Assembly: GCA_964645005.1 (NCBI GenBank)
Contig: CAZXYS010000014.1
Coordinates: 4,644 to 68,643 of the forward strand
DNA: 64,000 nt
Direction: 5' to 3'
From: an uncultured Hyphomicrobiales bacterium
GTDB lineage: Bacteria > Bacteroidota > Ignavibacteria > Kapaibacteriales > UBA2268
This document shows, piece by piece, positions 27,821-42,779 of the stretch. A program made the position numbers and the translations under genes. Under the pieces are notes generated by a model, which had not been told where the DNA came from, made no database searches, and saw only the letters and a program-made list of their open reading frames with translations. The stretch's first letter is position 1. Each line of letters starts with the position of its first letter.

Positions 27821-29962
27821 TTGAAGAATGAAAGAATAAACGGAAAAAACGCTATGACTAATGCTGAATACTCAGCTAAATATATACATATCATTTTCTT
27901 AGCTCTTTTGCTAATAATTTTTTTAAAAAATGATCTTCATTCACAGACAAAAAAAAAGCATCGGCTTCCCGGAACCACTGAGAAAAGCGATTCCCTGATT
28001 ATTGCTCCAAAGGACAGTCTGATGACGGCGGATTCATTGAATCAAATCTCCGATACAACCGCTGCTGCTGACACAACCATAAAGAAAGACACTATCCCTT
28101 TATATACTCCGCTTTACACACATGGAAGCATTTCTCTTACGCCTATGACCAAGTTTAGGAATATAAGAAAAGAAGATCTGCTCAAAGTGAATTATGTTTC
28201 TATATCTGAAATATTAAATAAAAAGCTTCCGATATATCCACTTTCGCTTGATGGTCATATACTTTACAATCATTTTTCTATCATGGGCGCGGCGCCAACA
28301 AATACGGCATTTACTTTCAATGGAAGAACATTGAACGATCCGGAGTTCGGCACGCTCAATCCCGAACAAATACCCCCTGAATTTCTGGAAAGTGCTGAAA
28401 TTCTTGTTGGCAGTGATGCTGTTATTTTTGGAGATAATTCATCAGGAGCCCTTATTAACATCCAGGAGATAAGATACAACACAGGGCAGCCGTATACACG
28501 GATGTGGTTAGGGGAAGCCGGTTATAAATTCTTAGGTGTTGATGGAATTTACAGTCAGAATTTCAAGAAGAACTGGAATTTTAATTTTGGCTTCAGGAGA
28601 TTAGCCGGCGATAATAGATTTGAAAATTCAGCCGCGGACAATTGGAATGTAAGGGGAATTTTAAGATGGAATCCATCCAACAGAACAAGTATATCCTTTG
28701 TCGAAAATTTTACAAATTTCGGAATGGGATTAAATGGCGGTGTTGATGAAACGGCAACGCCGAGCGAATTCTACTGCGATGAGATCCGCGCTCAAACACT
28801 ATATACAACGATGGCTGAAAGAATTTTCCGCCATGATATGACGATGACCTTCAGTCATTATCTCGCCGAGGATTCAATATCAGCGGTTTCAGGGACGCTT
28901 TATCTGACAAGAACGTACTGGGACAGAGACCGTTCTGAAGGCATTCTCTTTGCCGAACCAAAAGCTGAGACAAATTACAGCTACATTAATTTCTTCACTG
29001 GAGCCACAGGTAAGTACGAGCAGAATATAACAAAATATTTCAACTTAAATGCAGGTGGAGAGATAAATTATAATGAAATCCCATCCTCTCCATATACAGA
29101 TGAATGGTTCGGAATTAATATGACTGGCTTCGGCAGGCTTGAAATAGACAATCTCCTGCCCCATACGAAGCTTAGTGGTGGTATCAGATTAGGAGCGTTG
29201 TATGGGCAAATAAAAAATTCCTTTGGTGCCAAAGCGATTTTCAATATCACTGACAGCTTTTTAATTACCGCAGATGTATCCCGCTCTGAGAGAATTCCGT
29301 CTTTATCGGAAATAAAAACTGCCAACAAGGAGAATAACACTTTGTTTTATCTTGATGCCAAACTTAATAAGAAGTATTTTAGTATTAATGGTGGTATATT
29401 CACAAGGTTAGTTGGTTCGCCAATATTACATGATACACTCCAAAATGATCGTGGTACGGTTATCGGCACCAGAGCATACAATGGAGATTCAAGAAAGGCT
29501 CTGGGAGCTTATTTCGGTTTGAGTTGGAAAATTCTCAAACATTTCAAAATTCTACCGGTTTATGATGACGGAAATTTGAATATAGCATTCAAAGGTCAAA
29601 CGAATCTAACATTTACAGATGAAGAAAGAGATTATCGTCTTCCATTGTTATTTGGTAATCTGGAAATTTTCTATCAGGGGCTTGCCGGGCACAGCTTAAT
29701 GAATATTGGGATTAGCACATCTGTTACTACTATTTTTGAAGGTGAACGATATATCCCCTCTAGCAGAGCTTATGTCCCGTATTATATCAGGGACAACTTT
29801 TCGTTTAACGGGATCGATATATTTGCCGAATTGAAACTCGGAAATGCTTATCTCCGGTTAATGCTTGAAAATGCACTATCCCAGTGCTATTACTATGTCC
29901 CTATCTATCCTCAATTCGACAGAAACATAAGATTGATGGTCTCGTGGTCATTTTTCGAATAA
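27821..29962 (+). CDS. TonB-dependent receptor-like outer-membrane protein
   Basis: A plug-like region (ILVGSDAVIFGDNSSGALINIQ) is followed by a ~550-aa β-rich region. A signal-peptide-like segment follows the Met at 27854, which is the likely true start. Confidence 0.6.
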   Translation: MKNERINGKNAMTNAEYSAKYIHIIFLALLLIIFLKNDLHSQTKKKHRLPGTTEKSDSLIIAPKDSLMTADSLNQISDTTAAADTTIKKDTIPLYTPLYTHGSISLTPMTKFRNIRKEDLLKVNYVSISEILNKKLPIYPLSLDGHILYNHFSIMGAAPTNTAFTFNGRTLNDPEFGTLNPEQIPPEFLESAEILVGSDAVIFGDNSSGALINIQEIRYNTGQPYTRMWLGEAGYKFLGVDGIYSQNFKKNWNFNFGFRRLAGDNRFENSAADNWNVRGILRWNPSNRTSISFVENFTNFGMGLNGGVDETATPSEFYCDEIRAQTLYTTMAERIFRHDMTMTFSHYLAEDSISAVSGTLYLTRTYWDRDRSEGILFAEPKAETNYSYINFFTGATGKYEQNITKYFNLNAGGEINYNEIPSSPYTDEWFGINMTGFGRLEIDNLLPHTKLSGGIRLGALYGQIKNSFGAKAIFNITDSFLITADVSRSERIPSLSEIKTANKENNTLFYLDAKLNKKYFSINGGIFTRLVGSPILHDTLQNDRGTVIGTRAYNGDSRKALGAYFGLSWKILKHFKILPVYDDGNLNIAFKGQTNLTFTDEERDYRLPLLFGNLEIFYQGLAGHSLMNIGISTSVTTIFEGERYIPSSRAYVPYYIRDNFSFNGIDIFAELKLGNAYLRLMLENALSQCYYYVPIYPQFDRNIRLMVSWSFFE

Positions 29963-29963
29963 T

Positions 29964-32900
29964 CTATCGATTAATCATTAAAGAACCTGTCACGGGTTCG
30001 ACGTAAAGCACATTTTCAACGTTAATTCTATAATAATACGCTCCAACAGGTACTTTTCTGCCTTTTTTGTCAAAGCCGTCCCAATAAATCTCATTTTCAC
30101 CAAGGGATAGGTCTTTTTCCAGAGTCCTGATATGCTGTCCAACAGGATTATAGATCCGAATAACAGCAGTTCCGGCGTTTTCCGGTGCTTTATAAGTTAG
30201 ATTGAATGTCGTATTTTGTTCAAAAGGGTTGGGATAGTTCTTGTATTCAGTTATTTCATAGTTCCTGTTGATATTGAATCTATAAAGCACTGTATCCTTG
30301 TTTCCTGTTGCATCTTCTGCAGTAACCTGTATCCAGTGTTCCGTGAACTCGCTTGTTTGATCAAGTGAATCAGGTCTTAGTCTTAACAACAACTTGTATG
30401 ACGGATTCTGAGGATCCGGCTCTTTTATAAAATTATATTCTTTTGTATTATCCTGATTTTGATAATAACCGTTTATCTTAACTCTGATATTATCATTCGG
30501 TATCTCCAGTGGTGAATTATCATATATATTTATTTCGAACAGCGGGTTTTTAGGCAAATAAATACCTTCGTATAATTCCTGGCTGCCCGAGATAACCACA
30601 ATTTGAGGTTGTTCCTGATCTTCTCTGACATTTAAGATCGATTTTGCGGAATTATTAAATTTGTAAATGTCCATATCGGTACCATCCGGAGATAGTTGGA
30701 AGTTAACATCGTTTTCCGGATTATAACTCTTTGTGTTTACTATGAACTTTTCTTCAACTCTTTCATCAGGAAGCAAATGACTCTTTGAAAAATCAAATTG
30801 ATCAATTACAACATCTTCGGAGGATACTTCAGTATTGACTTTTACCTGATCGGCAGTTGTTCTAAGAGAAATATTCCGTATGGCAAAACCTATCTCCGTT
30901 TCTAAACCTCGCAGAACGGGAGTCTGTGATATTTTTATACTGCTCCTGGGGATTGCAAGTTCCGGTTGAGGAATAAATTCTGATCGTATCTCCGAAATAT
31001 AAGGCTCTTCTTTTATATTTTCGCCTCTGTTAAGAGTAATATCAATATCTATATAAGGATAATTCCCTGCTGATATTCTTGATAGATCTACCTTTCCGAA
31101 TTCATCAAACTCCAGTAATAAGTCCTTTTGGCTGCCGGAGACATTGTAACCTTGTACTATACCTTTAAGTTCGGTTAGATTGGGGGCAGTACTTCCGTCA
31201 ATACTGAAATTCTTCCATTCTTTAGCAGGTCCGATTCTGATGGTTTGCACACTTGCGGCTGTATCGTAAATAGGAACTTTTCCGTCGATTACAGCATCCC
31301 TGCCTTCGGGATCATGAGCTTCCACAACTTCATCCGGTACTGCATCTTTGAATGAAAACATTGCGTAGGAGGAGGATTTTTTAACGGAATCAAACAATGT
31401 TGTTGAAAATTCTTCTCTGAATACTTTTTTAAGTGTATCTATTGAACCAATGCTGGGAGGTGTACGCTTTGAAATGGGTACTTCGAAAGACCTGTCACAG
31501 GTAGCTATGAACACGTAATGGTTATTATTTATTGAATCTCTGATAAAATTAACCAGCTTTATCGATGAGGAATCATCCTTCCATGTGTCAAAGCCATGTA
31601 TCTTTCCTTCACCTGTATTTTTGGAGATAGTTACTACGCTGAAGCCCCTTGCATATTCGGTGTTTACATAAACATCAGAGTTTATTTCAATATTAGCCCA
31701 TCTTTTAGAAGGCGGAGTTCCCTTTGATGAAAGGCAGTAATAATCCACTTGTTTGTCAGGAATTTTATATTTGCCATGATTTTCATTGGTCAAATTGAAA
31801 TTATGTTTGTTCGATGATAATTCCTCAGCAGTATTTTGACTCCAATGTACAATTTCGCTGCCGCCTGTTTCAGAAGCATAAAAAGGTACTTTTAGCCATG
31901 TACTGAATTCTTGCTCATTCATGTTTCTTAATCTTGCGAAGAACCAGTAAGATGTACCATTTTCCAGTTCAATATCCGGTTTCCACTGGATGAAGGATTC
32001 ATCAATATCAAGGTCATCCGTATTTGCGCTGATAAGTGCATTCGCGCTGTCGACAGATGAAGTTTTTAGATGCATCTCGTATTCAAATTCACCTTCCTCA
32101 GCAAAGAGGTTTAATACCCTGAAGATCGGTTCACTGGAATTCACATCCCAGAATGCCATGGGATCAAGGACTGATACTCCCGGGGCGAACACATCTATGG
32201 TAGCTGAGACAGCATTATTTTCTCGATGAATCTCATTAGTTTCCTTCTCCGGGTCAATAATAACATCGATCACATGCTGCCCGGGCATATCTTTCACAGG
32301 TATTTTAAATGAGAAATTCTCATTATAGCAGGTACCGTTAATTTCAAAATCATAAATATCAGTTTTTCCATTGTAAATCCTTATAACCCTGACGATGTAT
32401 GGCTCCGGCAGTGATGTCCCGGCATTATAAATCGAACCGGAAATGGTCACCGAGTCATTTTCTGTGGTGATTATACTTGAACCTTCCTCAGATGCTAATT
32501 GAAAGTCACCTTTAAGGAAATATAGATCGGGAACTGTATCAATTTTAATTCTGGTATATGGATCGCCCAGATACAGATAGTGTTCCAGAGCCCTTAATTC
32601 CAGGTCATTTTTTGTTGATAAGGAAGCCTTGCCTGCAAAGAAAATCTCACCAAGTTCTCTTTTAGCATCTTGTTCCATACCCTGAAGCATGTAATACATT
32701 ATCTTTTTCTCAATAAGGGCACTGCTTACGGCTGTAGCACCCATAGACGCTATAGCCCCTTTCTCCGGAGCCATCAGATAAGATTCATTTCGGGAGTAAA
32801 CTTTTGGATTGGCAAATTCACCTGAATTACAGGAAAGCGTAGAAAAAATAAAATACTTGCCGTAATTATTCAGGGTCTGCACCTGCCAACCATCCAAATC

Positions 32901-35783
32901 AAAATATTCTGCTGAACCATGACCAAGGAAATTAGCCCATACTACCCCATCATTTATGATCTTGCGGACTCTACCAGCGTCTTTTTGCCCGATATTGGCT
33001 TCTTCGCTTTTGCACACCGATTCCGTAATACCACAGATCTCAGGACCTTCTATGTATGGAATGAATAATTCCTTGTCTTTGCAGAAGCCTCTTATCTCAG
33101 CAGGACCGTATCCACCCGAAATAAAGAAAAATTTCTTATGCCAGGGGGATATTTTTGAGGTGTCGTATTGAATCAGCTTATCAACAAAGTTTTCCGCAGT
33201 GTCGCTATTCCTGGCAGGAATTCTTCCGACTATAAAGTTGTTAACCTGCTTATCGTTGGATAATCCGTACCATGTATCACTGGTTGGAAGACCAAAGGTT
33301 GGAACAAGATCTTCGTATTGGGAATTCTTCCAGTTTAATTTAGGATCCCAGCTCGCATCGCCAAACATTATAGCATGTGTCGGTGCTTGTTTCCAATTAT
33401 CAAGTGTATATCTCAGAAAATTCCTTATGGCGTGAGGAGATTTCTTGCCATAGTTAAATTCTTTGTAAATGTCATCAACATTTACAACTTCAATATCGAT
33501 ATCTTGAAAATCTTTTCTGTGTTTAGCAAGTCTTTGTGCCTGATTTAATAAATTTTCATGAGAAATTATCAAGCCGTCGGCAGCGTTATTAGTGTCAGTC
33601 AGGTTAGACGAATTGGTCTTTTTTATCACAGCTTCTTCAACGGTTTTAGAATCATTCATGAAGAATTTGTAAGATGTCTGCTCCTTTATTTTAAGTTCAG
33701 CTTTGTAAGAAATCCCGGCATTGTCCTGAACAAATTTGGAAATTGCTGTCATACCGCTGTTTAATTGATCTCCACTGACAGATGTGCCTTTGCGGAAATA
33801 AAATGCATAGACATCACCCGCAGAATGAGAAGAAGCCCTGTTTAAACCGGCTGCCTTTAATTTATTCAGAAGTCCCTGATGTCCTATAGAGTTCTCGCCG
33901 TTATATACTCCTGATATAAATGTATTGTCAGGCAGGGCATCTATCAATGAAGAAACGTCACCCGGATTTTCATAAGTTTGTACTTTGGGAGTCCCCGGTG
34001 ATTCTACGGGTAGATACATAATGTGAAATCCTCTTTTCTTAGAGATCATACCGGAATCATTGATAACGACAGTAGCTGTAGGTTTATCGCCTGCAATACC
34101 ACCCATGTGAACTGTTGTACCATTCGATGCTTGTAGAAATTTAATGGTTTTGTTTAAGCTGTCAATAGCTGCTATATCAGGGGATTTGAAGCCTGTTACC
34201 TCAATTGAAGAGTTTTCATCAAGATATCCCGGATCAAATATGATATTACCTTTGTATGCCACCGGCTTTGAATTACCTTCCACAGCGTAATAGTCTATAC
34301 CTGCTTTTTTGGTCTTGAATGTATCGGTTGCCATTAACCGCAAACCTACATAATTCAAACCCGGCAGGATTGAGTTTTTTGTAAACTTACCTGTAAACTT
34401 TTTTTCTCTTATAAGGTCGAATCTTTGGATGTCCGCAGTGTCATAATTAACAAGAAAACGCAGTTCATATGAAGGTATGTGCCATGTTCCGTCAATAAAA
34501 ATTGAGTCCAATAAAGTCGTGGCTGCGGTGCTGACATCTATTGATTCCGAAGGATCATCAGATGGAAATACAAAAACAGGCTGTTGAAATTCTTTATCAA
34601 AGCTCTGGTCTATTATTGTCTGGTACCAACCTTCCGGGAAAATATTTTCAGTCTTAAGTAAATATTTGCCAATATAATATATCTTGTCATATTCGATTCT
34701 TTGGTTTATCTTAACCGAGCTAACTTTCTCGACAGTATTTACAGGATCGACATGCGAACTCAACCTGATTCCCCCGGAATTTTGATCATAATACAAATAG
34801 AAAGGCTCATTTTCAGTGTAATGATCAAACCAAGTTGAATCTCCAGCAGCCCGCCTGCCTAGAAAGTAGATTTTCTCATTTCCATCTATGGTATTATTAT
34901 CATCTGATATGTAGCATGGATATTCTTCTCCTTTATAAATCAGATGTAAGTTACTGGTTTTTTTGTTGTTCCATTCAGGGGCGTGCTTCAGGATATCCGT
35001 GACGTCAATCCTGGCTGCTCCGTCGGTAGTAGTCATGACTTTAAGATATTTCCTGTTAGGATCATACCAATCCGGAGCTGATAATATCTCAGGTGTTGTC
35101 TCCCCCTTATTGATCTTAACTTTTGAGTTAGAAACAAGATATCTAAGATGTTTCTTATTTACCACTCCCGAGAATAGTGCCCTTTCACCATTTGAAAAAG
35201 CTGCATCGGACATCGCTGCTTCCTTACCAAAGTCAATATCGACGGTGGATTGATCTAATACAGCTAAATCTCCGGACAGAGGATCATATCTAAAGGGCTG
35301 TATCGTAATCAAATATTCAGGCACTCCGCGCTGCTCACCTAAGTATTCGTAACTTACTGATGGTTCAATTATTTCTTTTGTAATTTGAATATCACTTCCG
35401 TTAATGAACCTTTTTCGTATGGAATCTTGCAGTAGATTACTGTACAAAGGTAAGTTTTTCTTACCGAGTGATTTAATGTTAAACTCGTCAATTTTAGTAT
35501 TTAAATTTGCGTTATGAGGTACTGCAGCAATGAATTTAATTACAGGAATTGCATAACCCGAAAAATTAACAAAAGGATCAACATGATCAGCATTATTGAT
35601 TGTTAACAGCTCAGTTTGATCATGGGTTAAGTATGAGGAAGTGCCAATGTCAGTTTGATTTAATTTTACTCTTAAACCTTCCGGCTTCTCAATTATTTCA
35701 ATGTTTTTGGCAAATAACGTATTTATTGCAAAAAACATTACAAGTATGAATGCGAGTTGTCTCTTCATTTGTATTCCATTCAA
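29964..35783 (-). CDS. gingipain-like cysteine peptidase (MEROPS C25 family) with a T9SS C-terminal sorting domain, 1939 aa
   Basis: A signal peptide is present. The His/Cys catalytic pair is in C25 order and spacing: ANFLGHGSAEYF ... FIFSTLSCNSGEF (compare gingipain GHGS ... CVNGDF). The C-terminus NYPNPFEQNTTFNLTY...AVIRIYNPVGQHIRTL...YYYRINV matches the Por secretion tail. Confidence 0.75.
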   Translation of the reverse strand: MNGIQMKRQLAFILVMFFAINTLFAKNIEIIEKPEGLRVKLNQTDIGTSSYLTHDQTELLTINNADHVDPFVNFSGYAIPVIKFIAAVPHNANLNTKIDEFNIKSLGKKNLPLYSNLLQDSIRKRFINGSDIQITKEIIEPSVSYEYLGEQRGVPEYLITIQPFRYDPLSGDLAVLDQSTVDIDFGKEAAMSDAAFSNGERALFSGVVNKKHLRYLVSNSKVKINKGETTPEILSAPDWYDPNRKYLKVMTTTDGAARIDVTDILKHAPEWNNKKTSNLHLIYKGEEYPCYISDDNNTIDGNEKIYFLGRRAAGDSTWFDHYTENEPFYLYYDQNSGGIRLSSHVDPVNTVEKVSSVKINQRIEYDKIYYIGKYLLKTENIFPEGWYQTIIDQSFDKEFQQPVFVFPSDDPSESIDVSTAATTLLDSIFIDGTWHIPSYELRFLVNYDTADIQRFDLIREKKFTGKFTKNSILPGLNYVGLRLMATDTFKTKKAGIDYYAVEGNSKPVAYKGNIIFDPGYLDENSSIEVTGFKSPDIAAIDSLNKTIKFLQASNGTTVHMGGIAGDKPTATVVINDSGMISKKRGFHIMYLPVESPGTPKVQTYENPGDVSSLIDALPDNTFISGVYNGENSIGHQGLLNKLKAAGLNRASSHSAGDVYAFYFRKGTSVSGDQLNSGMTAISKFVQDNAGISYKAELKIKEQTSYKFFMNDSKTVEEAVIKKTNSSNLTDTNNAADGLIISHENLLNQAQRLAKHRKDFQDIDIEVVNVDDIYKEFNYGKKSPHAIRNFLRYTLDNWKQAPTHAIMFGDASWDPKLNWKNSQYEDLVPTFGLPTSDTWYGLSNDKQVNNFIVGRIPARNSDTAENFVDKLIQYDTSKISPWHKKFFFISGGYGPAEIRGFCKDKELFIPYIEGPEICGITESVCKSEEANIGQKDAGRVRKIINDGVVWANFLGHGSAEYFDLDGWQVQTLNNYGKYFIFSTLSCNSGEFANPKVYSRNESYLMAPEKGAIASMGATAVSSALIEKKIMYYMLQGMEQDAKRELGEIFFAGKASLSTKNDLELRALEHYLYLGDPYTRIKIDTVPDLYFLKGDFQLASEEGSSIITTENDSVTISGSIYNAGTSLPEPYIVRVIRIYNGKTDIYDFEINGTCYNENFSFKIPVKDMPGQHVIDVIIDPEKETNEIHRENNAVSATIDVFAPGVSVLDPMAFWDVNSSEPIFRVLNLFAEEGEFEYEMHLKTSSVDSANALISANTDDLDIDESFIQWKPDIELENGTSYWFFARLRNMNEQEFSTWLKVPFYASETGGSEIVHWSQNTAEELSSNKHNFNLTNENHGKYKIPDKQVDYYCLSSKGTPPSKRWANIEINSDVYVNTEYARGFSVVTISKNTGEGKIHGFDTWKDDSSSIKLVNFIRDSINNNHYVFIATCDRSFEVPISKRTPPSIGSIDTLKKVFREEFSTTLFDSVKKSSSYAMFSFKDAVPDEVVEAHDPEGRDAVIDGKVPIYDTAASVQTIRIGPAKEWKNFSIDGSTAPNLTELKGIVQGYNVSGSQKDLLLEFDEFGKVDLSRISAGNYPYIDIDITLNRGENIKEEPYISEIRSEFIPQPELAIPRSSIKISQTPVLRGLETEIGFAIRNISLRTTADQVKVNTEVSSEDVVIDQFDFSKSHLLPDERVEEKFIVNTKSYNPENDVNFQLSPDGTDMDIYKFNNSAKSILNVREDQEQPQIVVISGSQELYEGIYLPKNPLFEINIYDNSPLEIPNDNIRVKINGYYQNQDNTKEYNFIKEPDPQNPSYKLLLRLRPDSLDQTSEFTEHWIQVTAEDATGNKDTVLYRFNINRNYEITEYKNYPNPFEQNTTFNLTYKAPENAGTAVIRIYNPVGQHIRTLEKDLSLGENEIYWDGFDKKGRKVPVGAYYYRINVENVLYVEPVTGSLMINR

Positions 35784-35930: not shown

Positions 35931-35980
35931 AAAATATTAAAAAATAAAAAAGCCGTATTAGTAATGACACTAATACGGCT
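35931..35980 (-). terminator. rho-independent terminator for the 36005-37369 gene
   Basis: On the minus strand, agccgtattagt-gtcatt-actaatacggct is followed by ttttttatttttt. Confidence 0.75.
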
Positions 35981-36004: not shown

Positions 36005-37369
36005 TTATTGATTCTGCCTTCTTGTGTTATCGCCTTTTTTGACATCTTCTCTGACGCCGACCATGATCTTCTCGGCAATTTCCTGAGCTATTACCTTTCT
36101 GATGTTATCATCGCTGGTCATGTATTCAGAGATAGCATTTTCAACTCTGTTCCGGATAATTTCAGCAGTTTGACCAACCAGTGCATTTGCAAGCTGGTGA
36201 ATATCACTCTGCTGCCCTTTAAGAGTCTCAAGCTGGCTTCTGTTGGCGTCTTCCATCTTCTTGAGCATCTTATCCATACGTTCTTCTTCTTCGGTGTAGA
36301 ACATAGTCACCGCAAGCAGGGTAAGCATAGTAAACTCAAGGAAAATAGCGAGCAGAATGAAAGAAGGTTTTGCTGCCGGGATAAACTTCAGACCACGAAT
36401 ACCAACAGCCACGATAAGGAATGCCGCACCGCCGTATGCCATACCTGTTACATTATTGGCATAACGCTCTGTGAAGTGGTGCGCCATGTAAAGACGCAGC
36501 CCTTTTCCAAAATAAAGGTGATTTCTGCGCCACATTAAGCCATCCTTGGTATCCTGGATTTCTTTTACGACAAAGTCTGAAAAGAATTCCTTGATCCTGC
36601 CGTAAAGTATGTCATTTCTAAAGCGAACCAAATCTACACTTTCGTCAAACAGATCATCAAAATTGACGTGATGTTTGGCGGAAGCAAGCTCTTCAGTTTC
36701 AGTTCTGTCCCAAATATTGATGAATGAATTCTCGACTTCGAATACTTCTTTCTCTGCCAGTGTATCATCAGGCATAATAAGAAGCTCGACGATTTCATCT
36801 GAGAATCCCGTTTGTAGTCGAATTTTGGTTTTGGTTTCATCCACTTGTTTCTCAAAGAACACTGCCATTAGTCCAAGACTTGATGGAAACAGGCTGGTTA
36901 AGAAAACACATAAGAAAAGAGCAATGACCATGGATATCCACCAAAACCCAACCCAGGGTTGCAAGATAATCGGATGCTCTCCAAGGGTTGGTGACTTAGC
37001 GTACCAGTCAATGGATGATTTAACATATCCATGTTCATCTGATGTTCTTTCTTTGAATGTGAAATCAAAAACATAATCGGGATTGATCAAATCTTTTTTG
37101 ATTTCAAGGTTTTTTCCTTTTAACTTAGGCTCTTCTTCTTTTGGAACCGATGCCCAAGCTAATCCTTCAAATTCAACAAACCCGATTTTTTCCAATTGTT
37201 CCCCGCTGGGCATAAACAACGGAACAACAAATTGCGCAGATATAAAGGGTATTACTTTAAACTGAAAAAGAACAAAAAACGCTGCAAAAAGTACCACAAA
37301 AACCAGTATGTGCTGGGCTCCCATTTTATACTTTTTACTTGCTGATTGGGATAGAGATGTTGTTGCCAT
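36005..37369 (-). CDS. hypothetical polytopic membrane protein with a C-terminal coiled coil
   Basis: 454 aa with an N-terminal TM cluster, a second TM cluster, and a C-terminal heptad-rich segment (MLKKMEDANRSQLETLKGQQSDIHQLANALVGQ). Confidence 0.5.
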   Translation of the reverse strand: MATTSLSQSASKKYKMGAQHILVFVVLFAAFFVLFQFKVIPFISAQFVVPLFMPSGEQLEKIGFVEFEGLAWASVPKEEEPKLKGKNLEIKKDLINPDYVFDFTFKERTSDEHGYVKSSIDWYAKSPTLGEHPIILQPWVGFWWISMVIALFLCVFLTSLFPSSLGLMAVFFEKQVDETKTKIRLQTGFSDEIVELLIMPDDTLAEKEVFEVENSFINIWDRTETEELASAKHHVNFDDLFDESVDLVRFRNDILYGRIKEFFSDFVVKEIQDTKDGLMWRRNHLYFGKGLRLYMAHHFTERYANNVTGMAYGGAAFLIVAVGIRGLKFIPAAKPSFILLAIFLEFTMLTLLAVTMFYTEEEERMDKMLKKMEDANRSQLETLKGQQSDIHQLANALVGQTAEIIRNRVENAISEYMTSDDNIRKVIAQEIAEKIMVGVREDVKKGDNTRRQNQ

Positions 37370-37603: not shown

Positions 37604-39457
37604 TTATTTTATATACAGTTTGAAGTTCTTGGGATTATACCATTTTTCCAACAGTTCAACAAATTCTTTGTAATTAGGAGGTTTAATAAAGTCACCGCTA
37701 ATACTAAGACTCCCTTTTATCGTAAAATATTGTACGTCTTCAATCACTGAAATATTAACTTTACCGGCTTCATTGGAAAAATCAATGTTTCCTATGTTAT
37801 GAACAATACTGCTGTTTTCGGGTATCTTGATCTTAAAGTGATATGATTCATTGACATTCCTATGTAATTTGACCGGTGTCTTTCTATCTGACTTAATTGC
37901 CGGAAAATCGAGAGTGTTGAAATCACCGGGATTAAAAGGGATGCTGACTTCCTTAAGATTTCCGGTATTTTGTGGCGGATTTTGGTCATTAATTTTAAAT
38001 TTCGCAGCGAAAGGAGCAAAATCTCCCGCTATGAAGTCGGGATTTTGAAGTTCCGCATCATAAGAATGTTTTGAGAAAGTGCTTTTGACTAATTTTTCAT
38101 TTTCCGATCTCTTTAATCCAGCCTGATAATGCCCGCCAATTTTCACTATACCATTGCCGGAAAATTTGCCTGTAGAGTCAATTTCCAGATTACATGATAA
38201 CTCAAAAATTCCCTTTTGAGCTTTTATCTTGTCTGTTTGCTTCCGAATTTCCGGCTCCCAAGGAGCAAAAAATTTCTTCCCATATAAATATTCAGGTGTA
38301 AAGCTGCTCTGATGTTTGTTTGGATCGAGATACACCTTCTTACCACCTTTTTCGCTGGGCGAGGCTATAACAATGGGATTTTCCAATTCCCCAAGAAACA
38401 ACTTATCATCCGGCATTGAAGCATCTTGCGAGAAAATTGCAGGATAAGCGCCAATATCCAGCGCTTTAAGCATTGCTGCAAATAGAATAGCCCTGTCGAG
38501 ATGATTCCCGACATTTCTGTCGAAGGCTTCCTGCGCCGGCATGGGTGTGCAGCCGGTTTTTAGCGGATCGCAGTTTCCCGTGCCTACATTATTATGGATA
38601 TGATCATAGATTTTGATGATCTTATCCATAGCCGTAAGTTCGTCGGTGGTGAGTTCTTTCACCGATTCTACCGCTTTGTCGTTAAGTGCGAATATATCTT
38701 CTGACTTACTTTTTATATGATCGATTATTTCGTTCTTTTTGGCAGATGAAAAATACAGTGCAGGGACAAATTTCTCGAAATCCGGCTGCTGCGTTTCCTG
38801 TGCCACAAGAGGAACATTTTTAAATTGCCATGTATAAACGTGGAAGCCCTCTTCATTTGTTTTGACCGGGGATTGTGAGCTATTTGCGAGATGGTGCTCA
38901 AAATATTGTCCGTTTGGCACTTTCACGATTACATTAAATTCTCTAACGGGGCTGCGCTTGCCTAAGACCACCTTCCCCTGCAAGCCTGGCAGAAAGTCCT
39001 TCTCTGATGTCAGGGTATAAGCAAATTCCACCGTGCAGCCAAACTCGAGCCCGGTATGTGTGACTACCATTTCCCTTAGATTCATCTCTGGAACATTATC
39101 GGACGCACATCTCGGCAGCACCTCGTTGAATGCATTTTCCGGCGAATGAACAATCTCGCCGGTGGTCATCTTAGTTGCCGACCGTTGGATTTCCAGTTCC
39201 TGATAGTCGGGATTGTAAACAATGAAAGATTCGCCCGACTTTCGATTAAGCGCATAGCTCGTAAGCACTTTTAATTCATGGGAATAGGTGAATTCAGTCG
39301 TGCCGTCCGGCTTCAACACGTAAACATGCGTTATCTTCTTATAGACTTCGTCGGCATTCTCTTCGGAATAACCGGCAGCATGTAAATTGCCGGCTAATAT
39401 TAATGCTAATAAGATTGTAAAAAAATTAGATTTCGATTTGTTCATTGATAATTCCAT
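37604..39457 (-). CDS. secreted transglutaminase-like-fold protein, predicted catalytically inactive (DUF3858-like)
   Basis: Signal peptide present. In the core motif VGNHLDRAILFAAMLKALDIGAYPAIF, His sits where transglutaminase-like enzymes carry the Cys. It is the last gene of an apparent three-gene operon. Confidence 0.55.
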   Translation of the reverse strand: MELSMNKSKSNFFTILLALILAGNLHAAGYSEENADEVYKKITHVYVLKPDGTTEFTYSHELKVLTSYALNRKSGESFIVYNPDYQELEIQRSATKMTTGEIVHSPENAFNEVLPRCASDNVPEMNLREMVVTHTGLEFGCTVEFAYTLTSEKDFLPGLQGKVVLGKRSPVREFNVIVKVPNGQYFEHHLANSSQSPVKTNEEGFHVYTWQFKNVPLVAQETQQPDFEKFVPALYFSSAKKNEIIDHIKSKSEDIFALNDKAVESVKELTTDELTAMDKIIKIYDHIHNNVGTGNCDPLKTGCTPMPAQEAFDRNVGNHLDRAILFAAMLKALDIGAYPAIFSQDASMPDDKLFLGELENPIVIASPSEKGGKKVYLDPNKHQSSFTPEYLYGKKFFAPWEPEIRKQTDKIKAQKGIFELSCNLEIDSTGKFSGNGIVKIGGHYQAGLKRSENEKLVKSTFSKHSYDAELQNPDFIAGDFAPFAAKFKINDQNPPQNTGNLKEVSIPFNPGDFNTLDFPAIKSDRKTPVKLHRNVNESYHFKIKIPENSSIVHNIGNIDFSNEAGKVNISVIEDVQYFTIKGSLSISGDFIKPPNYKEFVELLEKWYNPKNFKLYIK

Positions 39458-39462
39458 TATTG

Positions 39463-40689
39463 TTAATTCATCTTTTTCATTGGTAAAGTAAAGTAAAATG
39501 TAGTGCCTTTATTCTCTTCGCTTTCAACCCAGATCGAGCCTCCGTTTTTCTCAACGAATTCTTTGCAAAGGATCAATCCAAGCCCGGTTCCCTTTTCTTC
39601 TTTCGTTCCGGGTCTCGAGGATTGCTCTTCAATTTTGAACAGCTTATTTTTAATACTCTCATTCATGCCCATACCGCTGTCGTTTACGGACATAATGATC
39701 TTCTCATGGTTCTTCTCAGCTCGAATAGTGATATTATCATCTTTTCCACAGAATTTTATACTATTCGAAACAAGATTCCGTAAAACCGTGGCAATCATAT
39801 TTCTATCTGCGTAAGCCTGAATTTTTTCATCTATTTCATTTTTTACTATTACACCCTTAGAATTCGCAAAGTTTTTTAAAGTATAAGTGATTTGATTTGC
39901 CACTTCATTAAGATCAAGATCTTCAGGGTTGAAATCCACTTTTCCAAGCTGAGATCGTGCCCATCCCAATAAATTGGTTAGCAAATTATATGTTTGTCGG
40001 GAAGATTCGTTAATCATACTGATAAGTTCTTTTCTATCTTCTTCGGAAATTTCGTCGGATGCTTCTAATAGCTCTTTCGAAGCATTCAAAAGCACATTGA
40101 ACGGATTACGCAGATCATGCGCTATTATGGAAAAGAACTTATCTTTCCTCGTGTTCAGCTCTTTGTATTTTTCTTTCGATTCTTTTAGCGCAATTTCAGC
40201 TCTTTTTTTCTCGTCTATATCGAAAACTATTCCGGCAAGCTTCAGCGGATTACCGTTCTCATCTCTCTTAGTAACTATTCCCCGATCATAATACCATTTC
40301 CAGTTACCATCTTTCGTGCGGATTCGGTATTCTGTTTCGTAGGCGGGTTTTCTCATTTCGAGGTGGTCGCGCATATTCTGCATGGTATTTTCATAGTCAT
40401 CCGGATGAAGCATTTCCGTAAAACCCCAGACATCAGGATCGATTTCGCCCTCTTTATATCCAAGAGTTTCAATTTTTCTTTTGTTATAAATAACTTTGCC
40501 GGTGGGAACATCCCATTCCCAGCGCCCCAGATTACCTGCCCAGGCTAAATTGATGTCATCGTCTCTTAAAGAGAACTCTTCTTCCTGTCTTTTCTGCTCG
40601 AATTCAAGCACCTCGAGCTCTTTGATACGATTTTTCAGCCGCTCGTTTTCTTCGATAAGTTCTTGTTTGGTTCTTTTATCATCAGCCAT
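39463..40689 (-). CDS. cytoplasmic sensor histidine kinase (coiled-coil – PAS – HisKA – HATPase)
   Basis: No TM segment. PAS features (EWDVPTGKVIYNKRKIETLGY), H-box FSIIAHDLRNPFN, and the ATP lid GTGLGLILCKEFVEKNGGSIWVES are present. Confidence 0.9.
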   Translation of the reverse strand: MADDKRTKQELIEENERLKNRIKELEVLEFEQKRQEEEFSLRDDDINLAWAGNLGRWEWDVPTGKVIYNKRKIETLGYKEGEIDPDVWGFTEMLHPDDYENTMQNMRDHLEMRKPAYETEYRIRTKDGNWKWYYDRGIVTKRDENGNPLKLAGIVFDIDEKKRAEIALKESKEKYKELNTRKDKFFSIIAHDLRNPFNVLLNASKELLEASDEISEEDRKELISMINESSRQTYNLLTNLLGWARSQLGKVDFNPEDLDLNEVANQITYTLKNFANSKGVIVKNEIDEKIQAYADRNMIATVLRNLVSNSIKFCGKDDNITIRAEKNHEKIIMSVNDSGMGMNESIKNKLFKIEEQSSRPGTKEEKGTGLGLILCKEFVEKNGGSIWVESEENKGTTFYFTLPMKKMN

Positions 40690-40700
40690 AGTGAAAATCC

Positions 40701-42779
40701 TTACCTTTTTAATATAACCGGTTTATCAGAAAGTTTTTTCCTCTGCACAAGCGCCGCTTTGAATTTATCCCAATCTTCCGGCTTATATATTCTTTTTTCC
40801 ATTCTGTGTTCGACGGAAAATTTAAGATTATTTCCTTCAATCTTATATTCAGACTCAAAGCTCGCCGGATCGCCTTTTTCATAAGAACCTTCGATAACTT
40901 CGAATTCAGGAACTTTATCAGCATTTTGGTAATCCGGCAATTTCATTGTCTCATTTATCTTCACCAGTTTTGAGCATCTGATGCGAAAGCCGTATTCTCT
41001 TTCTTGCAAGTTAGTGTCAATCTCTAATTCATATCCGAAAAAATAATCGTCAAACGGATTCTCGGCAGTGATCGGTTTGAACATTAGCTTATCTTCTGTC
41101 ACAAAAGCGTAGTCGGGTATTCTAAAGCTTAGTTCAATATTGAACGGCTCGCTGATGTCGGACGGATCGGTATGCGTCAAACTTGTGATTTCAGCCTTAG
41201 GTGATATATCTGCGAATAACTGCGGGAAATATTCATCGCGCGAACTCTTGAAGCTGCGCAGGAATGCCCTTCTTATCAGGGCGCCGGTCTGACCTTCGGC
41301 TTCGATGGTTATTTTTCCTTTGAGCGTGCCATCCTTTTTGAGTTCAGTATCAGCACTGATATTGAGATAATGATTTTCCGCAGGTGATACCGGTGTCGTC
41401 ATCAAATCGGCGCCGCCGGGAATACCCATAAGCAATTGCTGCTGCTGTTCGGCGCTGGACCATAGTTCTCTAACGCCGGGCACCCAGGTCGGATCGAGCA
41501 ATATCCAGTCACCATCAGATAGTTTAGCTAAAGTCACACTGTGATTGAACTGATCGGCGGGAATTCTGTCTATCCGCGAGCCAGCCATAGTCATCGCCGG
41601 ATAGGACTCGAAACCGGCTGCGCGAAGCATTGTCACCAGCATACCGGCTTTGTCCTTGCATACACCGCAGCGGTCAGTGAAAGTCATTTTACCTGTGTGC
41701 AGGGTATATCCTTCGCCTTCGCCCATCGACAAGCCGGAATAGCGAATATTTTCCGCCACCCAGTGAGTCAATATCTTGATTTTTTCCATTTCGTCATCAA
41801 CGCCTTTCAGCAGTTCATCAGTCTTTTCCTGAACATCCTGTGTAACTTCGAAACTGCCGAAATCCTCGTTCACATTATGAAACCAGACCGCTTTGGCGTA
41901 CCAGTCCGGGGATGTGGACATGAGCAGCTTCGGCGCTACGTTTGATGCATTTACCATATTCGGCTCGCTGCTGAAAGGCTGCATATCCTTCTTGTACCAG
42001 CAATATTCGGTCTTGCCCGAGCGGTTAATTTCTTCTTTATGAGCGATTTTCGCAGTGCCGTAAGTTTTCTTATGCGGATTTACCTGAAGTGTAATATCTT
42101 TGTCTTTTTCTTGGTGGAAACGTATGTACGAAGTCAATTCCCCATTATAAACTTCGTATTGCAGCGGTTTATCCTTCGGCATGAAAATCCTGTAAACTTT
42201 TTCTTCAACAGGTGCCGATGAACGAAAATGAACTATATCGTAATAATGCCCCTTCATCGGCGGAACGAAGCGCTGTTCTTCGCCTTCGCTGTCGCCGAGA
42301 AGCGCGTAAGTGAAACCTTTGCGGTGGATGACAGTCTCGATGGCATCGCCCGGCTCGAGCCGCCCGAATTCCAACGTTTTATTTCTCATGCCCCAGTAAA
42401 TCATGCGCGCAGGGGCTGTATAATCGAGAATGCTCGAGGTATCTGTTTTTTCTACAGAACCATCCTTTCTGTAGATCTTTGCCGAGATTATATCTATCGC
42501 GGCGGATTGCGGATCGTAGTTATAGTGGCGATGCCTGTATTGTTTGGCGCCTTTCCACGTGAGAATTTTCGTCAATTTATGCATTTCCACGCGGCTAAGC
42601 CCGGATTCCTTGACATCCACTTCTGTGCTGTCGTACAGCACGACTACATCTGCATTGGGATATTCTTTCGTTTTTTCGATCAGTTCTCTATTTGGGTCTT
42701 TATTCTGCGAAAAACTTGTATAACAAAACAACAATATTAATATTATTGCCAGAGGAAAGTTCAATTTTAATGCGCTCAT
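40701..42779 (-). CDS. secreted transglutaminase-like cysteine protease superfamily protein (DUF3857-like N-terminus + TGase core)
   Basis: Signal peptide present. The core motif is DRCGVCKDKAGMLVTMLRAAGFESYPAM (the G-x-C...A...LR..G..A pattern of the transglutaminase-like core). Confidence 0.7.
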   Translation of the reverse strand: MSALKLNFPLAIILILLFCYTSFSQNKDPNRELIEKTKEYPNADVVVLYDSTEVDVKESGLSRVEMHKLTKILTWKGAKQYRHRHYNYDPQSAAIDIISAKIYRKDGSVEKTDTSSILDYTAPARMIYWGMRNKTLEFGRLEPGDAIETVIHRKGFTYALLGDSEGEEQRFVPPMKGHYYDIVHFRSSAPVEEKVYRIFMPKDKPLQYEVYNGELTSYIRFHQEKDKDITLQVNPHKKTYGTAKIAHKEEINRSGKTEYCWYKKDMQPFSSEPNMVNASNVAPKLLMSTSPDWYAKAVWFHNVNEDFGSFEVTQDVQEKTDELLKGVDDEMEKIKILTHWVAENIRYSGLSMGEGEGYTLHTGKMTFTDRCGVCKDKAGMLVTMLRAAGFESYPAMTMAGSRIDRIPADQFNHSVTLAKLSDGDWILLDPTWVPGVRELWSSAEQQQQLLMGIPGGADLMTTPVSPAENHYLNISADTELKKDGTLKGKITIEAEGQTGALIRRAFLRSFKSSRDEYFPQLFADISPKAEITSLTHTDPSDISEPFNIELSFRIPDYAFVTEDKLMFKPITAENPFDDYFFGYELEIDTNLQEREYGFRIRCSKLVKINETMKLPDYQNADKVPEFEVIEGSYEKGDPASFESEYKIEGNNLKFSVEHRMEKRIYKPEDWDKFKAALVQRKKLSDKPVILKR

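What the first reader, a model, noticed from the sequence alone, without database searches (positions are those of the whole stretch)
29964..35783. 1939-aa gingipain-like (C25) peptidase carrying a T9SS tail
The His…Cys dyad in C25 order and spacing (…NFLGHGSAEYF…27 aa…FIFSTLSCNSGEF…) sits about 880–930 aa from the N-terminus of a very large secreted protein that ends in a Por-type C-terminal domain. The ~880 aa before the catalytic domain and the ~900 aa after it are unassigned and may hold adhesin or Ig-like modules. Together with the papain-like polyprotein, this locus region encodes a substantial secreted cysteine-peptidase arsenal.
Basis: partly seen in the sequence, partly recalled or inferred. 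Interest (0 to 1): 0.55.

Follow-up and report, generated by a model that had tools for sequence, protein, structure and literature searches.

The report
Giant PorU-like surface cysteine peptidase
This gene encodes a very large exported cysteine enzyme that is real and probably active, but its closest relative is the "sortase" PorU, which trims and anchors secreted proteins in this bacterial group, not the tissue-degrading gingipains. It belongs to an unstudied sister family that sits beside the ordinary sortase in at least one related genome.

Summary
The ORF is real. It runs 29964-35783 on the minus strand, with a likely ATG at 35768, giving 1934 aa. It has a signal peptide, a full-length Peptidase_C25 domain (aa 733-1073, E 6e-65), a His950/Cys980 dyad and a T9SS C-terminal domain.

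"Gingipain-like" picks the wrong branch of C25. A profile of the family scores 146 bits against P. gingivalis PorU (6za2) and 44 bits against RgpB. Foldseek also ranks PorU first. In a tree of the catalytic domain, the protein sits in a clade of ~1900-aa proteins (94% bootstrap). That clade is sister to NCBIfam "putative sortase PorU2" (93%) and separate from canonical PorU.

The protein scores below NCBI's cut-offs for both PorU (228 vs 420) and PorU2 (270 vs 450). The family has at least 227 clusters at 50% identity. The named members come mostly from Ignavibacteria and Kapabacteria MAGs. One MAG carries both a family member and a canonical porU-porV pair, so the two are paralogs.

Compared with PorU and PorU2, the family adds a gingipain-prodomain-like N-terminus, a 200-aa insert and an ILEI/PANDER lectin-like domain. 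The dyad is invariant in 134 of 134 representatives.

Best reading: a second, PorU-type surface (trans)peptidase linked to the T9SS. A degradative surface protease is the main rival.

The parts
29964..35768 (-). Complete CDS, 1934 aa plus stop. ATG at 35768; the mechanical ORF begins at a TTG at 35783.
   Evidence: (identical P0001)
35709..35768 (-). Sec signal peptide, aa 1-20 (MKRQLAFILVMFFAINTLFA)
   Evidence: Read directly from the sequence. No predictor was run.
35199..35705 (-). N-terminal domain with a gingipain-prodomain-like fold, aa ~22-190
   Evidence: Foldseek hits to the Kgp prodomain 5mun and the RgpB prodomain 4ief chains A/C/E/G (E 2e-6 to 1e-5, TMt ~0.6). The family profile hits 5mun at E 0.0025. 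Pfam Propeptide_C25 matches only 3 of 16 members. Not detected in PorU or PorU2.
34269..35081 (-). N-terminal beta-sandwich cluster, aa ~230-500, shared with the PorU2 N-terminus
   Evidence: The region HMM hits PorU2 proteins P0024/P0025 (6e-14, 5e-9). It is present in 119 of 119 full-length family members. The AF2 model shows beta strands.
33669..34271 (-). Family-specific insert, aa ~500-700, mostly low-confidence in the model
   Evidence: Absent from P0005, PorU2 and PorU. Present in 94 of 119 members. pLDDT is below 50 for 501-578 and 663-709.
32550..33572 (-). Peptidase_C25 catalytic domain, aa 733-1073
   Evidence: Pfam E 6.3e-65. Foldseek hits PorU, RgpB and Kgp. pLDDT is 75-97.
32919..32921 (-). 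Catalytic His950 codon (in the GHG motif)
   Evidence: Aligns with RgpB His211 and the PorU GHG motif. Invariant in 134 of 134 representatives.
32829..32831 (-). Catalytic Cys980 codon
   Evidence: Aligns with RgpB Cys244 and with the Cys of the PorU motif TATCD. Invariant in 134 of 134 representatives.
32205..32468 (-). CARDB-like Ig domain after the catalytic domain, aa 1101-1188
   Evidence: Pfam CARDB is weak (E 0.003) but matches 5 of 16 members, best 4e-9. Foldseek hits 3idu and 2kl6 at TMt 0.72-0.76. Shared with PorU2.
31344..31649 (-). ILEI/PANDER-type (lectin-like) domain, aa 1374-1475
   Evidence: Pfam ILEI scores 31.4 bits (cut-off 27), E 2.7e-7. It matches 14 of 16 members, best 2.3e-17, and 116 of 119 members by region HMM. 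No hit in PorU or PorU2.
30249..31271 (-). Chain of beta-sandwich domains, aa ~1500-1840. The last one is the PorU-type pre-CTD domain.
   Evidence: AF2 model and generic Ig/MG-domain Foldseek hits. Region HMMs hit PorU2, and the 1700-1840 HMM also hits canonical PorU. The profile aligns to PorU residues 930-1153.
29967..30224 (-). T9SS C-terminal domain, aa 1849-1934
   Evidence: FlgD_ig scores 36-39 bits and CHU_C 23-27 bits. It aligns to the PorU CTD. The region HMM's best outside hits are canonical PorU CTDs (up to 60 bits).
35951..35980 (-). Terminator-like hairpin (13-bp stem plus a T run) between the upstream membrane-protein gene and this gene
36005..37369 (-). Conserved upstream neighbour: a 454-aa multi-pass membrane protein of unknown function
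   Evidence: It lies directly upstream on the same strand in eight loci, seven of them distinct genomes, at 55-73% identity. No Pfam, NCBIfam or PDB hit. More than 545 homologous clusters, all unnamed.

Best explanation
The gene encodes a 1934-aa cysteine (trans)peptidase of family C25 that is exported by the T9SS and sits on the cell surface. It belongs to the PorU (T9SS sortase) branch of C25. More precisely, it falls in a distinct clade of ~1900-aa proteins that is sister to NCBIfam's 'putative sortase PorU2'. The named members come mostly from Ignavibacteria and Kapabacteria MAGs.

Inferred mechanism: the Sec signal peptide takes the protein to the periplasm, and its PorU-type C-terminal domain takes it through the T9SS to the cell surface. 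The N-terminal gingipain-prodomain-like module may keep it latent. Cys980, activated by His950, then attacks the peptide bond in front of the C-terminal domain of a subset of T9SS cargo. That forms a thioester, which is resolved either by water (release) or by an amine on a surface glycolipid (anchoring), as in PorU. The built-in ILEI/PANDER lectin-like domain may bind the glycan acceptor or glycosylated cargo.

Shown here: family and branch membership, domain layout, conservation of the dyad, and paralogy with canonical PorU. Inferred: substrates, transpeptidation, retention of the CTD, and the roles of the prodomain-like and lectin-like domains.
For: C25 membership: Pfam E 6e-65. His950 and Cys980 align with RgpB His211 and Cys244.

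PorU branch: the only PDB sequence hit is PorU 6za2. The family profile scores 146 bits on PorU, matching both the catalytic domain and the last 220 residues, against 44 bits on RgpB. Foldseek ranks PorU first at 6.6e-24. NCBIfam hits are PorU2 at 270 bits and PorU at 228 bits.

Placement: in the NJ tree the giant clade has 94% support, giant plus PorU2 has 93%, and canonical PorU is separate. The protein is colinear with PorU2 from aa 730 to the C-terminus. Its CTD and pre-CTD domain are of the PorU type.

Activity: Gly949, His950 and Cys980 are invariant in 134 of 134 representatives.

Paralogy: the Ignavibacteria MAG SKW44 has both a family member (L013) and a canonical porU-porV pair (L026). 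Kapabacteria also have canonical porU-porV (L024, L025).

Context: a FadL/PorV-like barrel lies directly downstream in four distinct loci, a PorZ-like protein lies nearby upstream in two, and a PorV/PorQ-family gene is close by in L023. The window also encodes other proteins with T9SS CTDs.
Against: No biochemical data exist for this family or for PorU2. The protein scores below NCBI's curated cut-offs for both PorU and PorU2. No porV-, porQ- or porZ-like gene lies next to it in this window, and context varies across the family. The downstream barrel in related loci scores higher on FadL than on PorV_fam, and it is below the PorV_fam cut-off. A canonical PorU already exists in at least one related genome, so sortase activity is not needed from this protein. 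The prodomain-like N-terminus is a feature of degradative gingipains. Co-occurrence with canonical PorU was seen in only one MAG, and that porU is split by a frameshift.
Confidence: 0.55

Rival explanations
1. It is a degradative, gingipain-style surface protease. It would be a T9SS cargo made as a zymogen with an N-terminal prodomain, anchored or released after canonical PorU removes its CTD, and used to digest extracellular protein for nutrition. The Ig-like and lectin-like domains would act as adhesin or substrate-binding modules.
For: It has a gingipain-prodomain-like N-terminal fold followed by a catalytic domain and an Ig-like domain, as in RgpB and Kgp. A canonical porU-porV pair exists in a related genome, so the sortase role is already filled there. 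An oligopeptide:H+ symporter-like MFS gene lies directly downstream in L013, and a similar-sized ORF (not tested) lies downstream in L016. The protein evolves fast, at ~30% identity where the neighbouring gene keeps 64-73%, which fits an exposed surface protein.
Against: The catalytic domain is much closer to PorU and PorU2 than to RgpB (146 vs 44 bits; tree). The pre-CTD domain and the CTD match those of PorU. Pfam Propeptide_C25 is not significant in this protein. No residue equivalent to the gingipain S1 aspartate could be assigned.
Confidence: 0.3
2. It is simply this organism's only PorU: a divergent, enlarged ortholog that does the standard sortase job.
For: PorU is the best solved-structure and best-characterised match. 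No canonical porU is seen in the 64-kb window. In the P0002-type loci it sits between a PorZ-like gene and a FadL/PorV-like gene.
Against: A canonical porU-porV pair co-occurs with a family member in MAG SKW44 and is present in Kapabacteria. In the tree, the Kapabacteria canonical PorU groups with Bacteroidota PorU and not with this clade. The T9SS_sortase HMM score is 228 against a cut-off of 420. The rest of this organism's genome could not be examined.
Confidence: 0.1
3. It is a catalytically dead scaffold or adhesin that keeps only the C25 fold.
For: Most of the protein consists of Ig-like, lectin-like and other non-catalytic modules.
Against: Gly-His and Cys are invariant in 134 of 134 representatives, which were clustered at 50% identity. 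The catalytic domain is the best-conserved and most confidently modelled part.
Confidence: 0.03

Closest known systems
PorU, the T9SS C-terminal signal peptidase/sortase (P. gingivalis PorU, PDB 6za2; NCBIfam NF033707)
   Same: Both have a C25 catalytic domain with a Cys/His dyad and a multi-domain beta-sandwich architecture on both sides. They share a homologous pre-CTD domain and T9SS CTD. PorU is the top hit by sequence profile and by fold. PorU is itself a T9SS substrate that keeps its CTD and works in the PorQ-U-V-Z attachment complex (PMC10202324, PMC8545088).
   Different: This protein scores 228 bits against a cut-off of 420 and is about 650-780 aa longer. It has an extra prodomain-like N-terminus, a 200-aa insert and an ILEI domain. 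It is not next to porV in this window. It forms a separate clade, and a family member co-occurs with a canonical PorU in a related genome.
NCBIfam NF052324 'putative type IX secretion system sortase PorU2' (for example P0024 and P0025, 1629-1651 aa)
   Same: It is the sister clade, with 93% bootstrap support. The two are colinear from the N-terminal beta cluster through the catalytic, CARDB-like, middle, pre-CTD and CTD regions.
   Different: Only 270 bits against a cut-off of 450, matching model positions 365-879 only. Identity is about 22%. The prodomain-like N-terminus, the 500-700 insert and the ILEI region were not detected in PorU2. PorU2 itself is only a 'putative' annotation, and no paper describing it was found.
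Gingipains RgpB and Kgp (MEROPS C25; PDB 1cvr, 4ief, 4rbm)
   Same: Same peptidase family and fold. The dyad aligns with His211/Cys244. An Ig-like domain follows the catalytic domain, the N-terminal fold is prodomain-like, and a T9SS CTD is present.
   Different: Gingipains are far more distant than PorU (44 vs 146 bits). A single-sequence search gives no hit to them, and RgpB serves as the outgroup in the tree. No haemagglutinin/adhesin (Cleaved_Adhesin) domains are present.

Membership tests
Peptidase family C25 (Pfam PF01364) | Full-length match to the family HMM above the gathering score | tested here: met
   220.3 bits against a cut-off of 23, E 6.3e-65, model positions 2-373 of 374
Peptidase family C25 (Pfam PF01364) | His then Cys catalytic dyad at the positions of RgpB His211 and Cys244 | tested here: met
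   The HMM alignment places GH950 on YTGH211 and C980 on VAC244. The dyad is invariant in 134 of 134 relatives.
Peptidase family C25 (Pfam PF01364) | Caspase-like alpha/beta fold of the catalytic domain | tested here: met
   The AF2 model has pLDDT 75-97 over aa 710-1200. Foldseek hits PorU, RgpB and Kgp at probability 1.0, with TMt 0.54-0.65 for the gingipains.
Gingipain subgroup (RgpA/RgpB/Kgp) | Catalytic domain closer to gingipains than to other C25 members | tested here: not met
   PorU 146 bits against RgpB 44 bits. No gingipain hit by phmmer. RgpB was used as the outgroup in the tree.
Gingipain subgroup (RgpA/RgpB/Kgp) | N-terminal inhibitory prodomain (Propeptide_C25) | tested here: inconclusive
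   Fold-level hits to the Kgp and RgpB prodomains (E ~2e-6, TMt ~0.6), and a profile hit to 5mun at E 0.0025. Pfam PF08126 is not significant here and matches only 3 of 16 members. The model confidence there is moderate.
Gingipain subgroup (RgpA/RgpB/Kgp) | Acidic S1 pocket residue that sets Arg or Lys specificity | not tested
   The alignment in that loop is unreliable, and no coordinates were available.
PorU, T9SS sortase (NCBIfam NF033707) | Score at or above the curated cut-off of the equivalog model | tested here: not met
   228 bits against a cut-off of 420. Canonical PorU proteins score 850-1340 bits.
PorU, T9SS sortase (NCBIfam NF033707) | T9SS C-terminal domain of the PorU type, preceded by the PorU pre-CTD domain | tested here: met
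   The profile aligns to PorU residues 930-1153 (51 bits). Region HMMs hit canonical PorU CTDs (up to 60 bits) and pre-CTD domains.
PorU, T9SS sortase (NCBIfam NF033707) | Gene adjacent to porV | tested here: not met
   In the window the downstream gene is a convergent Plug/Porin_10 barrel, and tblastn finds no PorV-like match. Canonical porU-porV pairs were seen in L024, L025 and L026. A FadL/PorV-like gene follows relatives in four distinct loci, but it is below the PorV_fam cut-off.
PorU, T9SS sortase (NCBIfam NF033707) | Cleaves cargo CTDs and transfers cargo to a surface glycolipid; its own CTD is retained | not testable with these tools
   This needs biochemistry or proteomics. The reference behaviour is taken from PMC10202324 and PMC8545088.
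PorU2 (NCBIfam NF052324) | Score at or above the curated cut-off | tested here: not met
   270.5 bits against a cut-off of 450, matching model positions 365-879 only. True PorU2 proteins score 991-1013 bits.
PorU2 (NCBIfam NF052324) | Monophyly and colinear architecture with PorU2 | tested here: met
   93% bootstrap support for the giant plus PorU2 clade. Shared N-terminal cluster, CARDB-like, 1500-1840 and CTD regions.
T9SS substrate | Sec signal peptide plus a recognisable T9SS C-terminal domain | tested here: met
   The signal peptide was read from the sequence. FlgD_ig scores 36-39 bits, above its cut-off, and CHU_C is at threshold. TIGR04183 and Por_Secre_tail are not significant in this protein, but Por_Secre_tail matches 6 of 16 relatives.

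The most novel reading that the evidence does not exclude
The ~1900-aa family would be a self-contained second attachment enzyme in Ignavibacteria and Kapabacteria. It would combine in one chain the transpeptidase of PorU and a glycan-binding module (the ILEI/PANDER domain) that does the job PorZ does in P. gingivalis. It would be kept latent by a gingipain-type prodomain, and it would sort a separate class of T9SS cargo, or use a different surface acceptor, in parallel with the canonical PorU-PorV pathway.
Probability: 0.15. Interest if true: 0.6.

Novelty: new variant of a known kind. Interest (0 to 1): 0.4.

Why it matters
How the T9SS decides whether a cargo is released or anchored, and to what, is still unsettled (PMC10202324). 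Almost all mechanistic knowledge comes from the single PorU of P. gingivalis. This finding points to a large, conserved and apparently active paralog family with its own accessory domains, and one related genome carries it alongside a canonical PorU. That suggests some lineages outside the classical Bacteroidota run two sortase-type enzymes. It also gives a concrete target for testing cargo partitioning. For annotation, the practical point is that proteins like this should not be labelled gingipain-like virulence or degradative proteases on the strength of a Peptidase_C25 hit alone.

Tried and rejected
1. Neighbour as PorV. The upstream 454-aa gene is a multi-pass inner-membrane-type protein with no family hit. 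The downstream gene is a convergent Plug/Porin_10 barrel.

2. tblastn of the PorV-like and PorZ-like proteins from the P0002 locus against the window found nothing.

3. The word-indexed homolog search made the family look tiny, at 5-7 members. The exhaustive search showed at least 227 clusters, so rarity was rejected.

4. Cluster look-up for organism names returned no names.

5. The search for related loci failed twice because the alignments were too divergent. It worked with four sequences.

6. A single-sequence phmmer extraction of the C25 half-domain missed RgpB and some PorUs. It was replaced by an HMM-based extraction.

7. The C-terminal model gave only generic Ig/MG-domain matches, such as complement C3 and alpha-2-macroglobulin, at TM around 0.1-0.17. 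These are not informative beyond "a chain of beta-sandwiches".

8. Literature searches for PorU2, PorU paralogs or PorU in Ignavibacteria found no description. The PorU structure paper PMC8501833 is not held.

9. From memory, the upstream membrane protein's conserved two-helix segment resembles GldL/PorL. A profile search of the PDB and the NCBIfam scan did not support this.

10. Model coordinates are not exposed, so the His-Cys distance could not be measured.
Full report
**Observation.** The ORF at 29964..35783 on the minus strand is present as described. The likely start is the ATG at 35768, which opens a typical signal peptide (MKRQLAFILVMFFAINTLFA). The resulting 1934-aa protein is identical to a public protein, P0001. 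His is at 950 and Cys at 980 in the 1934-aa numbering.

Pfam Peptidase_C25 matches end to end at aa 733-1073 with E 6.3e-65. The C-terminus matches FlgD_ig above threshold and CHU_C at threshold, and it aligns with the C-terminal domain of PorU.

**Which C25 branch.** NCBIfam gives only two substantial hits: 'putative T9SS sortase PorU2' (270 bits, cut-off 450, model positions 365-879) and 'T9SS sortase PorU' (228 bits, cut-off 420). A phmmer search of all PDB sequences finds PorU of P. gingivalis (6za2, 6.7e-18) and no gingipain.

I built a profile from five full-length relatives, with no PorU sequence in it. It scores 146 bits (5.9e-42) on PorU, matching both the catalytic domain and the last ~220 residues. 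It scores 44 bits (3e-11) on RgpB. In that alignment the family's GH and C fall exactly on RgpB His211 and Cys244.

The AlphaFold2 model of aa 1-1200 has pLDDT 75-97 over aa 710-1200. By Foldseek it is most similar to PorU (6.6e-24), then to RgpB and Kgp (TMt 0.54-0.65).

I also built a neighbour-joining tree of the second half of the catalytic domain, with 258 columns, 100 bootstraps and RgpB as outgroup. The ~1900-aa proteins form a clade with 94% support. That clade joins bona fide PorU2 proteins (P0024 and P0025, 991-1013 bits on the PorU2 model) with 93% support. Canonical PorU forms a separate group, which includes P. gingivalis PorU and a Kapabacteria PorU. So the protein is a C25 enzyme of the PorU type. 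"Gingipain-like" names the wrong relatives.

**Size and distribution of the family.** The word-indexed search found only a handful of full-length relatives. An exhaustive phmmer search with the non-catalytic N-terminal 720 aa found 227 clusters at 50% identity with E ≤ 1e-3, most of them 1750-2000 aa long. A scan of GTDB species representatives placed members in MAGs labelled Ignavibacteria, Ignavibacteriota and Candidatus Kapabacteria/Kapaibacterium. A few carried generic or probably wrong labels.

In 134 of 134 representatives that cover the site, Gly949, His950 and Cys980 are invariant. This argues strongly for a working enzyme.

**Architecture.** Region-by-region HMMs built from eight family members, together with Pfam and the two models, give this layout:

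| Region (aa) | Module | Evidence and distribution |
|---|---|---|
| 1-20 | Signal peptide | Read from the sequence |
| ~22-190 | Gingipain-prodomain-like fold | Foldseek 5mun and 4ief prodomain chains, E ~2e-6, TMt ~0.6. Not detected in PorU or PorU2. The region HMM detects it in 54 of 119 full-length members. |
| ~230-500 | Beta cluster | Shared with the PorU2 N-terminus |
| ~500-700 | Family-specific insert | Poorly modelled |
| 733-1073 | C25 catalytic domain | All C25 relatives |
| 1101-1188 | CARDB-like Ig domain | Shared with PorU2 |
| ~1195-1335 | Family-specific stretch | 111 of 119 members; no hit outside the family |
| 1374-1475 | ILEI/PANDER-type domain | Pfam 31.4 bits here, cut-off 27; 14 of 16 members, best 2.3e-17; 116 of 119 by HMM. 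No hit in PorU or PorU2. |
| ~1500-1840 | Beta-sandwich domains | Shared with PorU2. The last one is also shared with canonical PorU. |
| 1849-1934 | T9SS C-terminal domain | Best outside matches are canonical PorU CTDs, up to 60 bits |

The C-terminal model gave only generic Ig/MG-domain fold matches.

**Paralog or ortholog of PorU.** The genome scan also picked up second C25 loci. In the Ignavibacteria MAG SKW44, contig 36 carries a family member (L013, 1880 aa, intact). Contig 11 carries a canonical porU followed by porV. That porU is in two ORFs scoring 357 and 443 bits on NF033707, apparently split by a frameshift. The porV scores 265 bits against a cut-off of 250 (L026).

Intact canonical porU-porV pairs also occur in Kapabacteria (L024, 1323 aa; L025, 853 bits). 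Together with the tree, this indicates that the giant protein is a paralog of the canonical sortase, not its replacement. Direct co-occurrence was seen in only one MAG, and the rest of this window's own genome could not be examined.

**Context.** In the window, the gene converges with a Plug/Porin_10 outer-membrane barrel gene (27821-29962). Upstream, beyond a strong terminator-like hairpin (35980-35951), lies a 454-aa multi-pass membrane protein with no family assignment. That membrane protein lies directly upstream of the giant gene in eight loci, seven of them distinct genomes. It is 55-73% identical there, while the giant is only about 30% identical. It belongs to a very large set of unnamed proteins of ~450 aa; the few members that carry an organism label are mostly Ignavibacteria or Kapabacteria. 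Whether the link is functional is unknown.

In four distinct related loci a FadL/Toluene_X-type barrel follows the giant gene. It has weak PorV/PorQ-family similarity (53.7 bits, cut-off 90; FadL 65 bits). In two loci a PorZ-like protein with a T9SS CTD (134 bits, cut-off 260) lies nearby upstream. L023 has a PorV/PorQ-family gene (104 bits, cut-off 90) three genes away. Other members sit among housekeeping genes, and in L013 a peptide-transporter-like MFS gene follows directly. Context therefore hints at outer-membrane and attachment partners but is not decisive. The window also encodes other proteins with T9SS CTDs (12967-15972 and 43152-48638), so the organism uses a T9SS.

**Mechanism.** From established knowledge of PorU (PMC10202324, PMC8545088, PMC4560394): PorU is a multi-domain surface Cys/His peptidase that is itself a T9SS substrate with an uncleaved CTD. 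It removes cargo CTDs and, through a thioester intermediate, transfers cargo to an amine on A-LPS that PorZ delivers.

By homology, I infer that the window's protein is exported in the same way and uses Cys980 and His950 for the same chemistry. It would act on some subset of cargo or with a different acceptor. The prodomain-like N-terminus is a candidate latency device, and the ILEI lectin-like domain is a candidate glycan-binding element. These last steps are inference.

The main rival is a gingipain-style degradative surface protease. It is supported by the prodomain-like fold, by the presence of a canonical PorU in a related genome, and by one transporter neighbour. It is weakened by the clear PorU/PorU2 affinity of the catalytic, pre-CTD and CTD regions. 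An inactive scaffold is effectively excluded by the invariant dyad.

**Comparison and novelty.** The protein fails the curated thresholds for PorU and for PorU2, and it differs from both in three added modules. It is best described as a new, lineage-specific variant within the PorU/PorU2 group. I found no paper on PorU2-type or giant PorU-like proteins. PorU2 exists only as a 'putative' NCBIfam label. The 'gingipain-like' label and the 'peptidase arsenal' framing do not.

Noticed in passing
window 36005-37369 (-): A 454-aa multi-pass membrane protein with no Pfam, NCBIfam or PDB match. It lies directly upstream of the giant C25 gene in eight loci (seven distinct genomes) at 55-73% identity. 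It belongs to more than 545 clusters of unnamed ~450-aa proteins; the few labelled ones are mostly Ignavibacteria or Kapabacteria. Residues ~300-420 are almost invariant: two TM helices with an invariant Glu345, then EEEERMDKMLKKMEDANRSQLE and a coiled coil. From memory this resembles the GldL/PorL N-terminus, but HMM searches did not support that.
   Followed up: partly
window 35951-35980 (-): A strong terminator-like hairpin (13-bp stem plus TTTTTATTTT) lies between the membrane-protein gene and the C25 gene. The two conserved neighbours are therefore probably transcribed separately here.
   Followed up: no
window 37604-39457 (-) and 40701-42779 (-): Two paralogous DUF3857 / transglutaminase-core proteins (the first also carries DUF3858) flank a PAS histidine kinase at 39463-40689.
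   Followed up: no
window 43152-48638 (+): An 1828-aa protein with a T9SS CTD (FlgD_ig, Por_Secre_tail/TIGR04183) and no other domain hit in Pfam, NCBIfam or the PDB. Only a faint precomputed Peptidase_C39_2 mark exists. A 'papain-like polyprotein' reading is unconfirmed.
   Followed up: partly
window aa 483-617 of the C25 protein (nt ~33918-34322): A marginal phmmer hit (E 0.006) to the staphylococcal serine protease Jep, around a 'GIAGDKP' motif that resembles the 'GYPGNKP' motif of Jep. It lies in the family-specific, poorly modelled insert. The motif is not conserved in relatives, so this is probably chance or a decayed relic.
   Followed up: no
L026 2573-6539 (Ignavibacteria MAG SKW44): The canonical porU upstream of porV is split into two ORFs in different frames (829 aa and 483 aa). 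The orthologous gene in L024 is intact at 1323 aa. This is either an assembly frameshift or a pseudogene. If it is a real pseudogene, it would change how the giant paralog in that genome should be read.
   Followed up: partly
L001/L009 3441-6461 (-) and L020 3472-6492 (-): A 1006-aa PorZ-like protein (134 bits, cut-off 260) with a T9SS type A CTD lies two genes upstream of the giant C25 gene. Downstream lie a FadL/PorV-like barrel and then lpxC-fabZ and lpxA-like lipid A genes.
   Followed up: partly
window 12967-15972 (-): A 1001-aa protein with a clear T9SS type A CTD (Por_Secre_tail 45 bits) and no other domain hit. It sits in a locally GC-rich stretch (0.49 against ~0.39) with long ORFs on the opposite strand.
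   Followed up: no
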